From assembly GCA_965219995.1 (NCBI GenBank), contig CBDCOX010000002.1:416001-480000 (forward strand): a stretch of 64,000 bases of DNA, given 5' to 3'. Of this stretch, positions 8,411 through 26,378 are shown piece after piece (position 1 is the first letter of the stretch; each line of letters starts with the position of its first letter). The position numbers and the translations under genes are program-made. The notes under the pieces are model-generated. The model was not told where the DNA came from. It was given only the letters and a program-made list of their open reading frames with translations, and ran no database searches. This DNA comes from Candidatus Latescibacterota bacterium (lineage in GTDB: Bacteria > Latescibacterota > UBA2968 > GCA-2709665).

Positions 8411-9205
8411 TCAGGAACCCACTGCGGAATATTTCCTGATGCCGCGGCGCCAGACGAATTTGACAATGACGAATCCCATAACCACCCAAAACGCCTGCAT
8501 CAGGAAACCATGCGTGATCTGCGCCTCGTCGAGCCTTCCCAGGAGTAGCTCGACCGGAAAGGCGACGGACCATTTGAACGGGAGCGCGTCCGCTACCGCC
8601 CGCAACCACGCCGGCAGCAGATCCAGCGGCGCGATTCTGCCCGAGAGAAATAGACCGAGGAAGTAATACATCTGATTGACCGCCTCGTTCCGGGTTGTCC
8701 AGAACGCAACAAGGGAGAGAGCCCACTCGACGAAGAATCTGAGGAGGTACGCAAGCACCAGCGACAACACAAAGAAGAACACGTTAATGCCTTCAAGGTC
8801 GAACGTGGGCTTGAACAGGAGGCAGAGTACGGCCGCGGACGGGACCAGTACGCACAGTGTCAGGGTCTTGTAGCCGATGTTGTCGGCAATGTCGCTGTGG
8901 ATCGGATGAATCGGCTTCAGGAGCATCGCGGACAGCTCACCGTGCTGCACGCGATAGCCCATCTCGTGCATGATCCAGGTAAACGTCCACATGTTGACAG
9001 CCATGAGGACAATATAATACGCGGCAAACCCGCCAGCGTCGTAACCGGCCACGTCGCCACCCCTGGCGATCGCAACCGTGGACCAGACAACGCAATAGAT
9101 CGTCGGTTCGAGGAGCCCGCCGATCATCCAGATCGCCATGGCCACGCGATATTGAAACTGAAGCGCAAGGGTGGTCTTCAGGTATGCCCAGTAGATCGCA
9201 ATCAT
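8411..9205 (-). CDS. ABC-2 family transporter permease (DUF990-like)
   Basis: Multi-TM; GELSAMLLKP, C-terminal GIRKYSAVG. Confidence 0.85.
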   Translation of the reverse strand: MIAIYWAYLKTTLALQFQYRVAMAIWMIGGLLEPTIYCVVWSTVAIARGGDVAGYDAGGFAAYYIVLMAVNMWTFTWIMHEMGYRVQHGELSAMLLKPIHPIHSDIADNIGYKTLTLCVLVPSAAVLCLLFKPTFDLEGINVFFFVLSLVLAYLLRFFVEWALSLVAFWTTRNEAVNQMYYFLGLFLSGRIAPLDLLPAWLRAVADALPFKWSVAFPVELLLGRLDEAQITHGFLMQAFWVVMGFVIVKFVWRRGIRKYSAVGS

Positions 9206-9210
9206 CGGCG

Positions 9211-10215
9211 TCAGACGGCTCCCGCCTGCCCCCCTCGGTCTTCCGGGGTTGCCACGGAGAAGACCTGTTCGATGACCTCCTCGATGGGCGGATCCTCGAC
9301 CGTCAGGTCGAGTACGGGCAGATCACCCAGAATCCTTGCCGTTACCTGTGGGGTGGCCTCTTTGGGTACGCGCAGGGAATAACGCAAGCCGGCGGCTTCA
9401 ACCACTTCTCCGTACGGAGTCAGGTCGGCGTCTTCGGTCTCGAGTTCGACGTCGATGGTCTTGTGCGGGGAGAAACGGGCGACCAGGTCGGAAAGCGCGC
9501 CATCGAAGAGAATCCGACCGTGGTGGATGACTACGACACGCCTGCAGAGGGCTTCGACGTCGGCCATGTAATGGCTGGTGAGCAGCACCGTCGCACCGTG
9601 CGCCCGGTTGTAGTTGTCGACGAAGCTCCGGATGCGGCGCTGCATGGTCACGTCGAGACCGATTGTGGGTTCATCCAGGAAGAGCACCTTCGGGCGATGC
9701 AGGAGGGCGGCCGCGATCTCGCATTTCATCCGTTCTCCCAGCGACAGGTTTCTGACCGGTTTTGGCAGAAGCGACTCCAGCTCGAGCAACTCCGTCAATT
9801 CATCGAGCGTCTCGCTGTAGTCCCTACGGGAGATCCGATAGACCGCTCGATTGCGTTCCAGCGAGTCGATCATCGGGATGTCCCAGATCAGCTGGTTTCG
9901 CTGTCCCATCACGAGCGTAATCTGGCTGAGGAACGCCTTCTCGCGCCGGTGAGGGACATGACCCAGGACGTCGGCCGTGCCGCCGGTGGGGTAGAGCAAC
10001 CCCGAGAGCATTTTGAGGGTGGTGGTCTTTCCCGCCCCGTTCGGACCGAGAAACCCGACGACCTCGCCCGGTTCGACGCTGAAGGAGATCGCCTCAACGG
10101 CCTTGACCACCCTCGTCTTTCGTCTGACGAGGCTTTTCGCCGCGGCGCGCAGTCCGGCCTCGCGTTCGGGCACGACGTAGTGCTTGGACAGGCCCTCTAC
10201 CGTGATGACGTGCAT
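9211..10215 (-). CDS. ABC transporter ATP-binding protein
   Basis: Walker A GPNGAGKTT, signature LSLGE, Walker B LFLDEPT, TSH. Confidence 0.95.
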   Translation of the reverse strand: MHVITVEGLSKHYVVPEREAGLRAAAKSLVRRKTRVVKAVEAISFSVEPGEVVGFLGPNGAGKTTTLKMLSGLLYPTGGTADVLGHVPHRREKAFLSQITLVMGQRNQLIWDIPMIDSLERNRAVYRISRRDYSETLDELTELLELESLLPKPVRNLSLGERMKCEIAAALLHRPKVLFLDEPTIGLDVTMQRRIRSFVDNYNRAHGATVLLTSHYMADVEALCRRVVVIHHGRILFDGALSDLVARFSPHKTIDVELETEDADLTPYGEVVEAAGLRYSLRVPKEATPQVTARILGDLPVLDLTVEDPPIEEVIEQVFSVATPEDRGGQAGAV

Positions 10216-23205: not shown

Positions 23206-23241
23206 AAGAAAAGACACGCTGATTTCAGCGTGTCTTTTCTT
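23206..23241. terminator. Intrinsic terminator downstream of the redoxin operon
   Basis: aagaaaagacacgctga-tt-tcagcgtgtcttttctt inverted repeat. Confidence 0.75.
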
Positions 23242-23260
23242 CCAGATGGCTTCTTTTGGC

Positions 23261-24241
23261 TCAGGGCACGCGTTTTCCGAAGTTCTTCGCGAATTCCAGA
23301 AAGTCCGGAAAGTCGACCAACCCGTTTCCGTTCAGGTCGAAGGTGGCGTTGTCGGTGCTGAAGGCCTGGGCGAATGCGACGAAGTCGCTGAACCCGATTT
23401 CTCCGTCATTGTCGAAGTCGGCCCGGGGATTGACGGGGACAACGATGGCCGTTCCTGAAAGAGCGACGGTGACGCTGCTGTTTTCAGGGTCGTCACTGGA
23501 AATGGTAATGGTGCCGGAGAATGGACCGCCCTCCGAGGGTGTAAAGGTGATGTCGACTGTAGCGCTGTCGCCAGGCGCGACCATGAGTTCCGTCAGGCTG
23601 AACATGACGCCCTCGAGGTCGGATACCATGTTCGAAATGCTGAGGTCGGTCCCGCCGGTATTCTGCACGACCAGCTTCAGGGTTCGCGACTCGCCCGCCG
23701 GAACGTCTTCACCAAAGTCGAGCGATGTATTGGCGAGGCTGATTGCGGGCGGCGTAACGGTCAGCAATTCCCGGATACTCGCCGCCGCGGCGCTGAGACC
23801 GGAAGCGCCGCGCCCAATGTGGCGGACGATTCCCTCACGGTCCGCGACCAGCAACGTGTGGGTCCCGTGCGATCCCCTGATACTGCCCGCCCTCAGCAGG
23901 AGGGGAAACGTGATCGAGGTCGTCGACTGAAAACCTTGAAGTTGGGACTGACTGCCATTGTAGATGTCGAGCCCCAGGACCGCAACGCCGTCATCCTGGA
24001 ACGCCTTCCAGATCTGCTGTTCAATGGACGGACCCGCCGCCCTGCACGTGGGTCAGTTGTGGCCCAGGTAATAGAGGACCAGGACACCGCCCTTGTAGGT
24101 CGCCGAGGCGTAGGTCTTCCCGTCCAGCCCCGTAAGCGAGAACGTCGGTACCGCGTCGCCGACACTCTGGGCTTCCGCGGGTTCCGGCGGGTTGAGTCCG
24201 AAGAACAGCAGAAACACAAGGCACGCCGCGATTCGACTCAT
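23261..24241 (-). CDS. Putative exported selenoprotein: redoxin (UxxC) + Ig-like (ASH/choice-of-anchor-like) + dockerin-like domains, 326 aa
   Basis: ORFs 24053-24241 and 23261-23854 are in frame and joined by 66 open codons after TGA (24053-24055). Read-through gives LYYLGHN-U-PTC at the thioredoxin active-site position. Signal peptide present; C-terminal DFDNDGEIGFSDF...DLNGNGLVDFPDF. Confidence 0.85.
24026..24042 (-). promoter_or_regulatory. Candidate bacterial SECIS hairpin
   Basis: GGGCGG-CGGGT-CCGTCC begins 10 nt after the UGA; the apical loop starts 16 nt after it and has G in position 2. Confidence 0.65.
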
Positions 24242-24274
24242 CGAAGGCCTCCTTCAAGAAAGTGAAAGTTCGCG

Positions 24275-25873
24275 TCAGAAATGGGTTTTAAGTCGCATTT
24301 CCAGTCCACTGAACGGCAACACAAGATAGCATGTCCCCGATGTACACGCGGCGCCGCCTCTCCTGCGTCCGGCGAATACGAAGGCTTCGTATCTATCGAG
24401 GAAGGCGACGTTGAGACTGACCGCCAACCAGGTCCGCGATCCGGTTTCGATCCGGTCCGTCGTGACGTTATCGTCCACTTCGAACGGATCGTTGGTGCGA
24501 TCCAGAATGAGAGCGGCGCCCGCGCCCGAGGGATGCTGGAATGAAAACTGAGCATACACATCCCGGAACGTCTGCTCGTTTCGGGGAAGCCTGGCAGCGC
24601 GTCGGAACTGCAGATCGAAGCTCGTGACAGCCCCGCCGGGTGCGGTGGACTCGATCCCCGCGCCGGCGATCCTGTGCATTCGGATGCCCTTCAATTCGTC
24701 CTTGCCCCAATTCACGAACAGGCTGGTCGATATCGCGCGGCCGTGGTCTTCCCTGTGGTGGTCGATGTCCAGGCCGACGTACCGTTCATTGAAAGTCGTC
24801 GCGAATCCGGGCGCCAGTTCGTTCTTTCCCTTACTGATGTTTGCCGTCAGCGTCCCCATCCCGAAAATCGAATACGTGGCCTCCGCCTGGTAGCCCGTTT
24901 CCGTATCGGCAATCAGTGCATGGGTCGCCCGGTTGAGCAGGACGGCCGAGTGTTCGCGGACCAGGGAAGGGGGATCGTTGAAACTGAAGGCGAAATTCTC
25001 ATAGTCCTTGTATTCCAGGCTGAGACCCAGGTTGGAAATTCCGGCGTTGGCCGAAAGATACAGAGCGCTTCCGTCCACGTGGACGTCATTCAGCCCGGCG
25101 TATTCGGCGTAGACGGTCGCGTACAGATCAGAGAGTCCGGATGCCTCCAACGCCGGCGTGACGTCCAGTTCCAGGAAGCCCGACCAGGTTCGGGTCGAAT
25201 CGAGCCTGGAGGCGTGATGGCTGACCGCCGTAACGCCGGCCTCGATCTGGCTGGCAGGCCGTAGCGATACCTCGCCTCCGACAAGCCAGCTATCGCGCCG
25301 CGGCAGGTCCCGGAGCGGGTTACCCACTCGTACCGCGGGCGGAATATCACTTAATACGGGTCGCCCGATCAGGGCTTTGGCCCCGGCCCGCGGCCCGGTC
25401 CAGGTGGCCATGCTGCCCTCGAGGTCTCGCGAGGGCGAATAGCGTCGCCGGTATTGCCCGCTCTCCAGAATAACGCCCGGCAGATCGAATGCCCTGAGCG
25501 TAATACCCCGCCCCAGGATCGCATAATAGTTGCCCGCAACCAGCTCCACGGGTCCCTGCGTCCAGCGAAGGTGTTTCTGTGAAACATGCACGACCTGGTA
25601 TTCGACCTGCGATAGCGGCGTGCCGGGAGCGGGGTTGCGCCACGCATTGAAGATCTCCGCCCGAAGTCCGGCCTGCATGCCGTGCCGCGTGTAGTCGACG
25701 TCGAACTGCTCATAAAGCGACGAAGCCGCCAGTGAGTCCGAGCCCGGTACGCGTCCCCGCTGGATTTCGGTCAGGCTGGATGCCGTCACCTGAGCACCGC
25801 CCGGTTTCGACGTCACCAGCAGAAGGAGCATTGTCAGGCTATTTGCCAGTGCTCGCATCGGCGTTTGCCTCAT
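24275..25873 (-). CDS. DUF6029-like outer-membrane beta-barrel protein
   Basis: Signal peptide, GNYYAILGRGITLRAF, LEYKDY, NDPPSLVREH, C-terminal RRGGAACTSGTC...F. Start is 25873 or 25858. Confidence 0.7.
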   Translation of the reverse strand: MRQTPMRALANSLTMLLLLVTSKPGGAQVTASSLTEIQRGRVPGSDSLAASSLYEQFDVDYTRHGMQAGLRAEIFNAWRNPAPGTPLSQVEYQVVHVSQKHLRWTQGPVELVAGNYYAILGRGITLRAFDLPGVILESGQYRRRYSPSRDLEGSMATWTGPRAGAKALIGRPVLSDIPPAVRVGNPLRDLPRRDSWLVGGEVSLRPASQIEAGVTAVSHHASRLDSTRTWSGFLELDVTPALEASGLSDLYATVYAEYAGLNDVHVDGSALYLSANAGISNLGLSLEYKDYENFAFSFNDPPSLVREHSAVLLNRATHALIADTETGYQAEATYSIFGMGTLTANISKGKNELAPGFATTFNERYVGLDIDHHREDHGRAISTSLFVNWGKDELKGIRMHRIAGAGIESTAPGGAVTSFDLQFRRAARLPRNEQTFRDVYAQFSFQHPSGAGAALILDRTNDPFEVDDNVTTDRIETGSRTWLAVSLNVAFLDRYEAFVFAGRRRGGAACTSGTCYLVLPFSGLEMRLKTHF

Positions 25874-26378
25874 CGTCGCCGCCGGCATCCGGAAAAAGCG
25901 CCGCAACCGCAGCCAGTAACGCCTCGGCGTTTTTCGAGTTATACCCGACCTGCCGTAGCGCAATCTCCCCGTCGGGTGTGATCAGAAGCGTCGTCGGCAG
26001 GACGTTCACCTGCATTCGCCGCATCACCGCGCTGTCAGAGTCGAGGGCGATGGGGAAGTTAACCCTTCGCGCCCTGAGAAAGGGTTTCACCCGGTTCTGT
26101 CCGCGCGGACCGTCCACGTTGACGCCAAGAACCGTGAGCCCGGATTTTCCGTATTTCTCGTGGATCTTCTGTAGCTTGGGCATTGCCTTGATGCAAGGCT
26201 TGCAGTAGGTCGCCCAGAAATCCAGAAGCACGGGTCCCTTTGCCAGCAGGGTCTTGAGGTTGACCCGTTCGCCCTGCAGATTCCGGAGGTTGAAGTCGGG
26301 GGCCGAGGCGGCGTTCGCGGACGCCGCAGACAGTGTGATCGAGGCGGCAAGAGCCAGCGATTGAAGGGTCGATTTCAT
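25839..26378 (-). CDS. TlpA/ResA-like periplasmic thiol-disulfide oxidoreductase
   Basis: Signal peptide, APDFNL, DFWATYCKPC, LPTT. ATG at 26378 with GGGAG RBS. Confidence 0.92.
   Translation of the reverse strand: MKSTLQSLALAASITLSAASANAASAPDFNLRNLQGERVNLKTLLAKGPVLLDFWATYCKPCIKAMPKLQKIHEKYGKSGLTVLGVNVDGPRGQNRVKPFLRARRVNFPIALDSDSAVMRRMQVNVLPTTLLITPDGEIALRQVGYNSKNAEALLAAVAALFPDAGGDDEANADASTGK

What the first reader, a model, noticed from the sequence alone, without database searches (positions are those of the whole stretch)
23206..26378. Candidate trans-outer-membrane thiol/selenol relay: TlpA, DUF6029-like barrel, surface Sec-redoxin
Seen: three tightly linked, co-oriented genes (overlapping or 33 nt apart) closed by one strong terminator. 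Each has a signal peptide and one redox pair: CKPC, a C-terminal CTSGTC, and UPTC. From recall, DUF6029 barrels in Bacteroidota sit next to TlpA-like and Omp28-like thioredoxin-fold genes and have no assigned function. Inference: electrons pass from a periplasmic TlpA through the barrel dicysteine to an outer or surface redoxin tethered by its dockerin-like tail. Here a selenoenzyme would take the place of the usual third partner. This is the best candidate in the window for an undescribed system.
Basis: partly seen in the sequence, partly recalled or inferred. Interest (0 to 1): 0.8.

Follow-up and report, generated by a model that had tools for sequence, protein, structure and literature searches.

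The report
Outer-membrane thiol/selenol redox module
Three linked genes encode a periplasmic thiol reductase predicted to sit inside a large outer-membrane barrel, followed by a secreted selenocysteine redox protein; the trio recurs in several bacterial phyla and may carry reducing power to the cell surface, a route I found described in no paper.

Summary
On the minus strand lie a TlpA/ResA-like CxxC protein (25839-26378), a DUF6029 beta-barrel ending in CTSGTC (24275-25873), and a UxxC redoxin with an Ig domain and a dockerin-like tail (23261-24241), closed by a 16-bp terminator.

The TGA is a real selenocysteine codon. 53 of 62 aligned homologous sites carry TGA and 9 carry Cys codons. A hairpin follows the TGA, and selA, selB and tRNA-Sec are in the genome.

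A TlpA gene lies beside the barrel gene in 78 of 78 related loci and in 20 of 20 Bacteroidota loci found independently by Pfam. The barrel's C-x4-C is kept in 104 of 108 near-full-length family representatives.

The third partner is nearly always sorted to the surface. It is either a U/CxxC redoxin with a type IX secretion tail or dockerin-like tail, or an Omp28-type CxxC protein.

The barrel model most resembles 24-stranded ushers. Complex prediction scores 0.87 against a best control of 0.00. It places TlpA inside the lumen, touching the tip of the Cys hairpin.

Best reading, at about 45%, is a thiol/selenol conduit across the outer membrane, working like the MtrCAB porin-cytochrome complex. 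No redox step has been shown. My searches found no description in print.

The parts
25839..26378 (-). TlpA/ResA-like periplasmic thiol-disulfide oxidoreductase, 179 aa, with an N-terminal signal-like segment
   Evidence: Pfam AhpC-TSA 88.5 bits, Redoxin 72.7, Thioredoxin_8 51.4. Closest solved sequence is ResA, E 1e-21. NCBIfam ResA subfamily 105.9 bits against a cut-off of 170, and TlpA equivalog 53.8 against 230, so it is a member of the superfamily only.
26193..26204 (-). CKPC active-site motif of TlpA (residues 59-62)
   Evidence: C59, P61 and C62 are invariant in 61 aligned homologues. A56, Y58, C59 and K60 lie in the predicted interface with the barrel.
24275..25873 (-). DUF6029 outer-membrane beta-barrel, 532 aa, about 24 strands
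   Evidence: PF19494 55.7 bits against a cut-off of 27. AF2 pLDDT 87.4, pTM 0.81. Best structural matches are the FimD translocation domain (Z 19.1, rmsd 4.7, 362 aligned) and PapC (Z 18.3).
24329..24346 (-). CTSGTC (C510-C515), a beta-hairpin in the last long loop of the barrel
   Evidence: At least 90% conserved in A1. Present in 20 of 20 Bacteroidota barrels and 104 of 108 representatives. S512 and G513 are in the predicted contact with TlpA.
23261..24241 (-). Secreted selenoprotein redoxin, 326 aa: Trx fold (about residues 27-161), Ig-like domain (about 165-266), dockerin-like EF-hand tail (about 272-326)
   Evidence: Pfam AhpC-TSA 49.2 bits, Redoxin 38.5, HYDIN/VesB-like Ig 48.7, EF-hand_1 28.6. 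NCBIfam choice-of-anchor D 51.7 bits against a cut-off of 45. AF2 pLDDT 90.2. The Trx domain matches ResA at TMt 0.81-0.86, rmsd about 2.1 A.
24053..24055 (-). In-frame TGA read as selenocysteine (U63 of UPTC; C66 at 24044-24046)
   Evidence: The aligned codon is TGA in 53 and TGC/TGT in 9 of 62 homologous hits, with conservation on both sides. Eight further TGA forms occur in Bacteroidota. selA, selB and tRNA-Sec are in the genome.
24026..24042 (-). SECIS-like hairpin starting 11 nt after the UGA (6-bp stem, 5-nt G/U-containing loop)
   Evidence: RNAfold gives -9.3 kcal/mol. In the register shared with relatives, 80.7% of cells pair, against 39-47% when slid, and 0 of 500 shuffles reach this; one pair shows GC, AU and CG. 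It is not more stable than shuffles of the same sequence.
23264..23446 (-). Dockerin-like C-terminal tail (two EF-hand-like loops, two helices)
   Evidence: EF-hand_1 28.6 bits against a cut-off of 25.4. Dockerin_1 14.5 bits is below its 22.9 cut-off. Helices at 284-293 and 311-320. Similar tails occur at 62 places in the own genome, this one included.
23206..23241 (-). Intrinsic-terminator-like hairpin closing the three-gene unit
   Evidence: 16 pairs, 7 of them G-C, 4-nt loop.

Best explanation
This is a conserved three-part redox module of the cell envelope. Shown: (1) a soluble periplasmic TlpA/ResA-like CxxC protein; (2) a roughly 24-stranded DUF6029 outer-membrane barrel whose only cysteines form an invariant C-x4-C hairpin near the C-terminus; (3) a secreted TlpA-like selenoprotein (UxxC) with a surface-sorting tail. 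Predicted: TlpA enters the periplasmic half of the barrel lumen like a plug. Its active-site face meets the conserved loops that fold in from outside, including the tip of the Cys hairpin. Inferred: TlpA is reduced at the inner membrane by a DsbD/CcdA-type protein and carries reducing equivalents to the barrel. Thiol-disulfide and selenosulfide exchange then passes them, through the lumenal Cys pair or directly, to the redoxin at the cell surface. That redoxin reduces extracellular disulfides or oxidants. In logic it resembles the MtrA-MtrB-MtrC porin-cytochrome conduit, but uses Cys/Sec pairs instead of haems. It would be an outer-membrane counterpart of DsbD.
For: Families and motifs. Barrel fold: AF2 pLDDT 87.4; best matches are 24-stranded ushers, FimD Z 19.1 and PapC Z 18.3, whose lumen holds a folded domain. 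Linkage: a TlpA homologue lies within 670 nt of the barrel in 78 of 78 loci (52 upstream on the same strand, 24 divergent, 2 downstream on the opposite strand). It lies directly upstream in 20 of 20 Bacteroidota loci found with the Pfam model. ORFs often overlap. Cys pair: 104 of 108 near-full-length representatives from an unbiased profile search keep it, median 2 Cys per mature protein, and one representative lost both together. Third partner: a U/CxxC redoxin in 53 of 78 loci. In the 20 Bacteroidota loci there are 10 redoxins (8 with TGA), 9 Omp28-type proteins and 1 locus with none seen; CxxC was read in the 5 Omp28-type proteins examined, from 4 of those 9 loci. Surface sorting: of 22 redoxins scanned, 17 carry FlgD_ig and/or Por_Secre_tail (type IX C-terminal domain) and 3 carry Ig plus an EF-hand/dockerin tail. 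Complex prediction of barrel 28-532 with TlpA 24-166: ipSAE 0.87, 0.86 and 0.87; best of 3 controls 0.00; 169-182 contacts; partner pLDDT 86-87. In the tool's calibration 116 of 157 solved complexes and 2 of 215 mismatched pairs reached the mark; these counts hold only roughly here because my own alignments were used. Contacts cover the lumen-facing ends of strands around the whole barrel, loops 116-133 and 300-309, residues 512-513, and TlpA A56, Y58, C59, K60. The genome has a DsbD_TM protein. Sec evidence.
Against: No redox step has been measured or modelled. The S-S distance between TlpA C59 and barrel C510/C515 could not be read, because no coordinates were returned. Binding of the redoxin to the barrel was not tested (the cap is one complex job). 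Predicted interface residues are not more conserved than the rest: barrel 2.58 vs 2.44 bits, permutation p about 0.11; TlpA 2.56 vs 2.80 bits, p about 0.94. An invariant Cys pair in a tight hairpin could be purely structural. The third gene is missing from the cluster in 25 of 78 loci. One redoxin (L087) has no tail. A TlpA lodged in the outer membrane must still reach an inner-membrane reductant, which requires cycling on and off. Surface location rests on sorting domains only. Dockerin_1 is below the Pfam cut-off in the window's own protein.
Confidence: 0.45

Rival explanations
1. Plug-and-barrel transporter with a redox gate. The barrel is a channel for a solute or polymer, for instance a polysaccharide as the Wzi likeness would suggest. 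TlpA is its removable plug or gate-keeper, the Cys hairpin is a redox switch, and the surface redoxin modifies the cargo or senses the outside.
For: The barrel is large and usher-like. TlpA is predicted in the lumen. One paper notes an HHpred likeness between DUF6029 and the Wzi barrel and proposes polysaccharide secretion (PMC9603273, passages read). Wzi appears among the structural matches at Z 13.2.
Against: None of the 100 neighbouring ORFs scanned in 20 Bacteroidota loci carried a polysaccharide-export (OPX/PCP) domain. The window's own neighbours are tilS, ftsH and a Gfo/Idh/MocA gene. All three conserved partners carry redox pairs, which a plain transporter does not need. Wzi aligns to only part of the model (28-409) and ranks below ushers and OprD-type porins.
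Confidence: 0.2
2. Dedicated maturation factors. TlpA, and perhaps the redoxin, only make, break or proof-read the barrel's own disulfide or that of other envelope proteins during assembly. The predicted complex would be a folding intermediate and not a working conduit.
For: Adjacency is universal and translational coupling of TlpA and barrel is frequent. TlpA touches the tip of the Cys hairpin in the model. As I recall, LptD needs Dsb enzymes for its disulfides; this was not checked here.
Against: It does not explain a third redox protein with secretion and surface tails that is conserved across phyla. It does not explain the use of selenocysteine. An interface of 169-182 contacts that wraps TlpA all round looks like a stable seat more than a transient enzyme-substrate contact.
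Confidence: 0.15
3. Envelope antioxidant pair. The UxxC protein is a peroxiredoxin-like peroxide or sulfenic-acid reductase recycled by TlpA in the periplasm. The barrel is merely co-expressed, for example as a porin admitting the oxidant.
For: Both proteins match AhpC/TSA. 'Prx-like thiol:disulfide oxidoreductase (PF00578, UxxC)' is a listed predicted selenoprotein family (PMC13188914, passages read).
Against: The Sec aligns with the first Cys of the TlpA WCxxC motif (L058 row). The fold is closer to ResA (TMt 0.81-0.86) than to Bcp peroxiredoxins (about 0.71). Type IX and dockerin-like tails point outside the periplasm. The barrel's Cys pair and its predicted complex with TlpA would be left unexplained.
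Confidence: 0.12
4. The TGA is a true stop. The third 'gene' would then be a 62-aa leader peptide plus an unrelated downstream ORF, or a pseudogene.
For: The hairpin after the TGA is not more stable than shuffled sequence. No Rfam family was reported there.
Against: 53 TGA and 9 Cys codons stand at the same aligned site, with protein conservation continuing across it. Eight more TGA forms occur in Bacteroidota. The Sec machinery is present. The read-through protein folds as one Trx domain at pLDDT 90.2. An RNA-library contig of a close relative keeps the TGA (X19, record 13).
Confidence: 0.03

Closest known systems
MtrCAB / Pcc porin-cytochrome conduits (PMC7198977 and PMC4282303, abstracts seen in the search listing)
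   Same: The three-part logic is the same: a periplasmic redox protein sheathed inside a large outer-membrane barrel, and a surface redox protein outside, encoded together. MtrB appears among the structural matches at Z 13.1.
   Different: There are no haem-binding CxxCH motifs in any of the three proteins (read). The carriers would be Cys/Sec pairs, which need direct thiol-disulfide exchange and not electron hopping. There is no sequence relationship.
DsbD/CcdA to TlpA/ResA/CcmG reductive pathway of the periplasm
   Same: The first gene is a TlpA/ResA-class CxxC protein. The genome has a DsbD_TM protein. The idea of a membrane-embedded Cys pair passing electrons between Trx-fold proteins on either side is DsbD's mechanism (established knowledge, recalled).
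   Different: DsbD is a helical inner-membrane protein. Here the membrane part is an outer-membrane beta-barrel with a loop Cys pair. My searches turned up no outer-membrane thiol relay in print.
LptD-LptE plug-and-barrel and the usher plug domain
   Same: A folded protein of about 15 kDa is predicted to sit inside a 24-26-stranded barrel.
   Different: The plug here is a soluble Trx-fold enzyme without a lipid anchor (it has no lipobox, read). There is no Pfam Usher hit and no LptD hit at E <= 0.1.
Prx-like thiol:disulfide oxidoreductase selenoproteins (PF00578, UxxC; review PMC13188914, passages read)
   Same: PF00578 match, UxxC motif, Cys-containing homologues.
   Different: The passages I retrieved from the review do not mention surface-sorting tails or linkage to TlpA plus DUF6029. 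Its only mention of the outer membrane concerns an MtrB/PioB-type selenoprotein.
HBP35 of Porphyromonas gingivalis (PMC2907840, abstract seen in the listing)
   Same: A thioredoxin-motif protein with a type IX C-terminal domain that attaches to the cell surface. This is a precedent for Trx-fold proteins outside the outer membrane.
   Different: No barrel or TlpA partner is mentioned in that abstract. It is not a selenoprotein. I did not test whether its gene lies next to a DUF6029 gene.
Wzi-like barrels / DUF6029 as a proposed polysaccharide porin (PMC9603273, passages read)
   Same: The same Pfam family was proposed there, from HHpred similarity.
   Different: That proposal rests on Wzi-like hits near OPX genes. 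The loci examined here have redox partners and no OPX genes.

Membership tests
DUF6029 (PF19494) | Match to the Pfam model above the gathering score | tested here: met
   55.7 bits against a cut-off of 27; the only family at E <= 0.1.
DUF6029 (PF19494) | Outer-membrane beta-barrel fold with a C-terminal aromatic residue | tested here: met
   AF2 pLDDT 87.4, about 24 strands by DSSP. The protein ends in Phe. Of 108 representatives, 74 end in F.
DUF6029 (PF19494) | C-x4-C near the C-terminus (my own hallmark for the family, not Pfam's) | tested here: met
   CTSGTC at 510-515. Found in 104 of 108 representatives and 20 of 20 Bacteroidota barrels.
TlpA/ResA-class thiol-disulfide oxidoreductase | Trx fold with (W/Y)CxxC and a conserved cis-Pro loop; exported | tested here: met
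   Redoxin 72.7 bits and AhpC-TSA 88.5 bits. C59, P61, C62 and P128 are invariant. ResA E 1e-21. The signal segment was read from the sequence only.
ResA (NF002854) / TlpA equivalog (NF047696) | Score above NCBIfam's curated cut-off | tested here: not met
   105.9 against 170, and 53.8 against 230. It is a member of the superfamily, not an equivalog.
Prx-like / redoxin UxxC selenoprotein | In-frame TGA at the redox Cys position, with Cys-containing homologues | tested here: met
   53 TGA and 9 Cys codons among 62 hits; 8 TGA and 2 Cys among Bacteroidota redoxins.
Prx-like / redoxin UxxC selenoprotein | Sec machinery in the same genome | tested here: met
   SelA 473.8 bits, SelB wing 71.4 bits, tRNA-Sec 73.4 bits (gathering score 47), all clustered.
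Bacterial SECIS element | Hairpin shortly after the UGA, with conserved pairing and G/U in the apical loop | tested here: inconclusive
   The hairpin starts at +11, -9.3 kcal/mol. 80.7% of cells pair against 39-47% when slid; 0 of 500 shuffles reach this; one covarying pair; a second covarying pair in the other clade. But z-scores are weak, RNAalifold finds only 2 pairs on A2, and registers differ between clades.
Peroxiredoxin (AhpC/Bcp) | Peroxidatic Cys in the Prx motif; Prx-like structure | tested here: not met
   The Sec aligns with the first Cys of the TlpA WCxxC. ResA-type structures match better (TMt 0.81-0.86) than Bcp (0.71-0.72).
Type I dockerin (PF00404) / GC-type dockerin (NF041540) | Score above the curated cut-off | tested here: not met
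   14.5 against 22.9 and 25.4 against 29. EF-hand_1 passes at 28.6 against 25.4. Hence 'dockerin-like'.
Type IX secretion cargo | C-terminal Por_Secre_tail / CTD | tested here: not met
   The window's redoxin has none. 17 of 22 homologues scanned have FlgD_ig and/or Por_Secre_tail; 6 of them pass the Por_Secre_tail cut-off.
Porin-cytochrome conduit (MtrCAB/Pcc) | Multihaem c-type cytochromes (CxxCH) inside and outside the barrel | tested here: not met
   No CxxCH in any of the three proteins. This is a functional analogy only.
Chaperone-usher usher | Usher Pfam domain with plug, N- and C-terminal domains | tested here: not met
   There is no Usher hit at E <= 0.1. Only the barrel aligns.
Wzi | Wzi sequence family; 18-stranded barrel with a helical plug | tested here: inconclusive
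   No Pfam hit at E <= 0.1. Structural Z 13.2 over model residues 28-409 only.

The most novel reading that the evidence does not exclude
A thiol/selenol-based electron conduit across the bacterial outer membrane, which would be the first outer-membrane counterpart of DsbD and a non-haem analogue of MtrCAB. Periplasmic TlpA plugs into the DUF6029 barrel and reduces its lumenal Cys hairpin. The hairpin then reduces a selenocysteine redoxin displayed on the cell surface. This would give Bacteroidota, Latescibacterota, Gemmatimonadota and relatives a supply of reducing power outside the cell.
Probability: 0.35. Interest if true: 0.95.

Novelty: categorically new. Interest (0 to 1): 0.85.

Why it matters
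The space outside the outer membrane is treated as beyond the reach of the cell's thiol-reducing systems. The known conduits across that membrane use haems.

A conserved module that seats a thioredoxin-fold reductase inside an outer-membrane barrel, next to a surface-sorted Cys or Sec redox protein, would add a second chemistry for exporting reducing power. Possible uses are breaking extracellular disulfides in food proteins, defence against oxidants, or handling of metals and metalloids.

It would also give a first function to DUF6029, which has 1417 representative clusters at E <= 0.001. It would explain why many Bacteroidota type IX cargo proteins are thioredoxin-like. And it would place a widespread selenoprotein family in a defined pathway.

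The Bacteroidota versions sit in lineages with genetic tools, so the idea can be tested directly.

Tried and rejected
- **Short RNA fold.** A thermodynamic fold of 78 nt after the TGA gave z = +1.12, no more stable than shuffles. A 33-nt window across 55 TGA forms gave a median z of -0.71, against 0.10 for 18 Cys forms. That Cys set includes non-orthologous Omp28 types, so the signal is weak.
- **Rfam.** At gathering thresholds Rfam reported only rRNA and tRNA in the window.
- **RNAalifold.** On the 27-sequence alignment it found only 2 pairs, because the hairpin registers differ between clades.
- **Conservation test.** Predicted interface residues were not more conserved than other residues.
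- **BLASTP of redoxin against TlpA.** The alignment was weak and mis-registered (E 0.014). The U-to-Cys correspondence rests instead on the tblastn row for L058 and on Pfam coordinates.
- **Omp28-type partner against PDB sequences.** No match. Its thioredoxin-like fold is recalled, not tested.
- **Barrel as export pore for the redoxin.** Rejected as the main reading, because most homologues carry a type IX C-terminal domain, and type IX cargo, as I recall, uses its own translocon. The own genome has a SprA_N hit.
- **Greedy ORF calling.** It picked spurious opposite-strand ORFs in L133 and L141. This was corrected with tblastn.
- **Expression.** RNA-library contigs (X15, X18, X19, X20, all from one study) come from a relative that is mostly 95-99% alike. 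They cover TlpA, the barrel and the 5' third of the redoxin gene, and bridge both gene junctions. They cannot show a single transcript or exclude DNA carry-over. No cover was seen left of 23894.
- **Habitat.** The share of words held in runs labelled sponge, coral or marine metagenome was not followed up as evidence of habitat.

Full report
**What is there**

On the minus strand of the window lie three co-oriented genes.
- The first (25839-26378, 179 aa) is a TlpA/ResA-class protein with YCKPC. It matches Pfam AhpC-TSA at 88.5 bits and Redoxin at 72.7 bits. Its closest solved sequence is ResA, E 1e-21. It is below NCBIfam's cut-offs for ResA and TlpA proper.
- The second (24275-25873, 532 aa) matches only DUF6029, at 55.7 bits against a cut-off of 27. 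It ends in ...CTSGTC...THF.
- The third (23261-24241) is open for 326 codons only if the TGA at 24053-24055 is read through. It then gives UPTC in an AhpC-TSA/Redoxin domain, an Ig-like 'choice-of-anchor D' domain, and an EF-hand/dockerin-like tail.

The first two ORFs overlap by 35 nt and the last two are 33 nt apart. A 16-pair terminator-like hairpin follows. Downstream are tilS and ftsH. Upstream, in divergent orientation, is a Gfo/Idh/MocA gene.

**Selenocysteine**

The genome holds selA (473.8 bits), selB (71.4 bits) and tRNA-Sec (73.4 bits) in one cluster.

In 78 related loci, tblastn found 62 hits to the redoxin domain. The codon aligned to U63 is TGA in 53 and TGC or TGT in 9. Two of those nine, both in L058, are not orthologues. 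Protein conservation runs across the TGA.

Eight further TGA forms and two Cys forms lie next to DUF6029 genes in Bacteroidota.

A hairpin starts 11 nt after the UGA (-9.3 kcal/mol). In the register shared with relatives, 80.7% of cells pair, against 39-47% when the partner columns are slid. None of 500 shuffles reaches this, and one pair shows GC, AU and CG. In the other clade RNAalifold finds 5 pairs, one of them covarying UA/GC.

Against this, the folds are not more stable than shuffles, RNAalifold finds only 2 pairs on alignment A2, and Rfam reports nothing there. As I recall, the E. coli fdhF element has its apical loop at a similar distance; this was not tested.

I take the Sec reading as near certain. 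The exact SECIS structure remains open.

**The barrel**

AF2 on 44 homologues gives pLDDT 87.4 and pTM 0.81. By my count of the DSSP string there are 24 strands, with short turns on one side and long loops on the other.

The best structural matches are the 24-stranded usher pores: FimD at Z 19.1, rmsd 4.7 A over 362 residues, and PapC at Z 18.3. Then come OprD-type porins, with Wzi at 13.2 and MtrB at 13.1.

By strand parity, the most conserved motifs lie in the long 'outer' loops. These are residues 116-133, residues 293-324 with NDPPSLVREH, and the Cys hairpin at 507-518. That is unusual for outer-membrane proteins and suggests that these loops fold into the lumen.

The Cys pair is a hallmark of the family:
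- It is at least 90% conserved in A1.
- It is present in 20 of 20 Bacteroidota barrels found with the Pfam model.
- It is present in 104 of 108 near-full-length proteins among the best 150 of a profile search over 1.84 billion representatives. That search gave 1417 hits at E <= 0.001.
- Three of the four exceptions lack the C-terminal part altogether. The fourth has lost both cysteines together.
- The median mature protein has just these two cysteines.

The 78 of 78 count in the related loci is biased, because that search used the Cys motif as one of its patterns.

**Linkage**

A TlpA homologue lies within 670 nt of the barrel gene in 78 of 78 loci. The records are titled Latescibacterota, Gemmatimonadota, Eisenbacteria, Rhodothermales, Cytophagia and others. 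In 52 it is upstream on the same strand, in 24 divergent, and in 2 downstream on the opposite strand.

As an independent sample, PF19494 hit 39 of 167 genomes of the phylum of G001. That genome's record is titled Cytophagia, so I take the phylum to be Bacteroidota. The tally includes one unpublished genome, G162, which I did not read; without it the count is 38 of 166. I fetched 20 regions from 18 of these genomes, chosen for contig length. All 20 have a TlpA homologue directly upstream on the same strand.

In the window's own phylum the barrel profile hits 90 of 151 genomes. The own genome has one copy.

**The third partner**

A redoxin homologue lies in 53 of 78 loci: 48 with at least one TGA form and 5 with Cys forms only.

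The other 25 loci mostly run straight from the barrel gene into tilS-sized and ftsH-sized ORFs. In 5 of 5 such genomes examined, a TGA-containing redoxin-Ig-dockerin homologue lies elsewhere in the genome.

In the 20 Bacteroidota loci the third gene is:
- a redoxin in 10 (8 with TGA, 2 with Cys);
- an Omp28-domain protein in 9, where the 5 such proteins I examined, from 4 of these loci, each carry a CxxC;
- not seen in 1.

Pfam was run on 22 redoxins read with TGA=U:
- 17 carry FlgD_ig and/or Por_Secre_tail, the type IX secretion C-terminal domain; 6 of them exceed the Por_Secre_tail cut-off.
- 3, from the window's clade, carry Ig domains plus an EF-hand/dockerin tail.
- 2 have no tail recognised by Pfam.

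The window's tail recurs at 62 places in its own genome, counting itself, so it looks like a general sorting or anchoring tag. The third partner is therefore, as a rule, a redox protein destined for the cell surface or beyond.

Its Trx domain folds like ResA (TMt 0.81-0.86) more than like Bcp peroxiredoxins (about 0.71).

**Complex prediction**

I submitted barrel residues 28-532 (alignment A1) with TlpA residues 24-166 (alignment A4, 61 sequences).
- ipSAE was 0.87, 0.86 and 0.87, and the best of three controls was 0.00.
- There were 169-182 contacts, partner pLDDT was 86-87, and the runs agreed in at least 90% of contacts.
- In the tool's calibration 116 of 157 solved complexes and 2 of 215 mismatched pairs reached the mark. 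These counts hold only roughly here, because my own alignments were used.
- The tool states that the model supports binding and does not show it.

The contact list contains the lumen-facing ends of strands all round the barrel on the side of both termini. It also contains loops 116-133 and 300-309, residues 512-513 between the two cysteines, and the C-terminal residues. On TlpA the list contains A56, Y58, C59, K60, residues 123-126 next to the cis-Pro, and the subfamily motif D89-G-P-R92.

My reading is that TlpA sits inside the periplasmic half of the lumen, encircled by the barrel and touching the in-folded loops, including the tip of the Cys hairpin. I know of no solved complex of this kind that the model could have remembered (recall).

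A check by conservation gave no support: interface residues are not more conserved than the rest.

**Mechanism**

Shown: the three families, the Sec codon, the Cys hallmark, the linkage and the sorting tails.

Predicted: TlpA as a plug in the barrel, close to the Cys hairpin.

Inferred: reducing equivalents pass from an inner-membrane DsbD-type protein (present) to TlpA, then to the barrel's Cys pair or directly onward, then to the surface U/CxxC protein, and finally to extracellular substrates.

This mirrors MtrA-MtrB-MtrC, with thiols in place of haems.

The rivals are a redox-gated transporter, dedicated maturation factors, a periplasmic antioxidant pair, and a true stop codon. They are weighed in their own section.

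**Expression**

Contigs from four RNA libraries of one study come from a relative that is mostly 95-99% alike. They cover TlpA, the barrel and the start of the redoxin gene. They bridge both gene junctions, and one of them keeps the TGA. Contigs cannot prove a single transcript or exclude DNA.

**Literature**
- 'DUF6029' occurs in two held papers, of which one was listed. It proposes a Wzi-like polysaccharide role from HHpred (PMC9603273, passages read).
- 'Omp28' + 'thioredoxin' returned 12 papers, 'selenoprotein' + 'type IX secretion' returned 1, and the TlpA/outer membrane/beta-barrel terms returned 11 papers, of which 10 were listed. None describes this module, judging by titles and abstracts in the listings.
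- A 2026 review lists PF00578 UxxC 'Prx-like thiol:disulfide oxidoreductase' among predicted selenoproteins, without this context (PMC13188914, passages read).
- Supplements were not consulted.

**Verdict**

The module is conserved across several phyla of the FCB group and is not described in the literature I searched. Every redox step is still inference.

Noticed in passing
window 23264-23446 (-); own genome: The dockerin-like EF-hand tail recurs at 62 places in the own genome and at 30-78 places in five related genomes. It looks like a lineage-wide C-terminal sorting or anchoring tag.
   Followed up: partly
L020, L022, L032, L050 (about 8620-9640); L040 7576-10687: Related loci carry two or three tandem redoxin paralogues after the barrel gene. 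TGA and Cys forms occur side by side.
   Followed up: partly
L076 3124-5040 (-); L088 3428-5344 (-): A UxxC redoxin is fused to a beta-lactamase-fold domain ahead of a type IX-like C-terminal domain, 639 aa in all. Pfam was run on L076 only; L088 is inferred from its equal length.
   Followed up: no
L128 2637-4037 (-): One Bacteroidota DUF6029 gene is interrupted by a single in-frame TAA. It may be a pseudogene or a sequencing error.
   Followed up: no
protein P0167: One DUF6029 representative has lost both cysteines of the C-x4-C together (Y....F), as expected for a disulfide pair.
   Followed up: no
L129, L131, L134, L141 (Omp28-type genes beside TlpA and barrel): Omp28-domain proteins carry one CxxC each (CTPC, CGYC, CAPC, CQWC), combined with a PEGA domain or a type IX tail. 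None has a relative among PDB sequences.
   Followed up: partly
window 31893-37918 (+): A complete rRNA operon (16S, two tRNAs in the spacer, 23S, 5S).
   Followed up: no
G000:C2:1802582-1805869: selA, selB and tRNA-Sec lie together in one cluster.
   Followed up: no
window 23894 (RNA contigs X19 and X20): RNA-library contigs of a close relative diverge from the window to the left of 23894, leaving loose ends. The relative's redoxin therefore differs after about residue 116.
   Followed up: no
window 28234-29751 (-): A 505-aa ORF with a Gly/Arg-rich N-terminal region and no Pfam family at E <= 1e-5.
   Followed up: no
L058 3928-4428: The locus titled Cytophagia has a further TGA-containing TlpA-like ORF upstream of the TlpA-barrel pair.
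   Followed up: no
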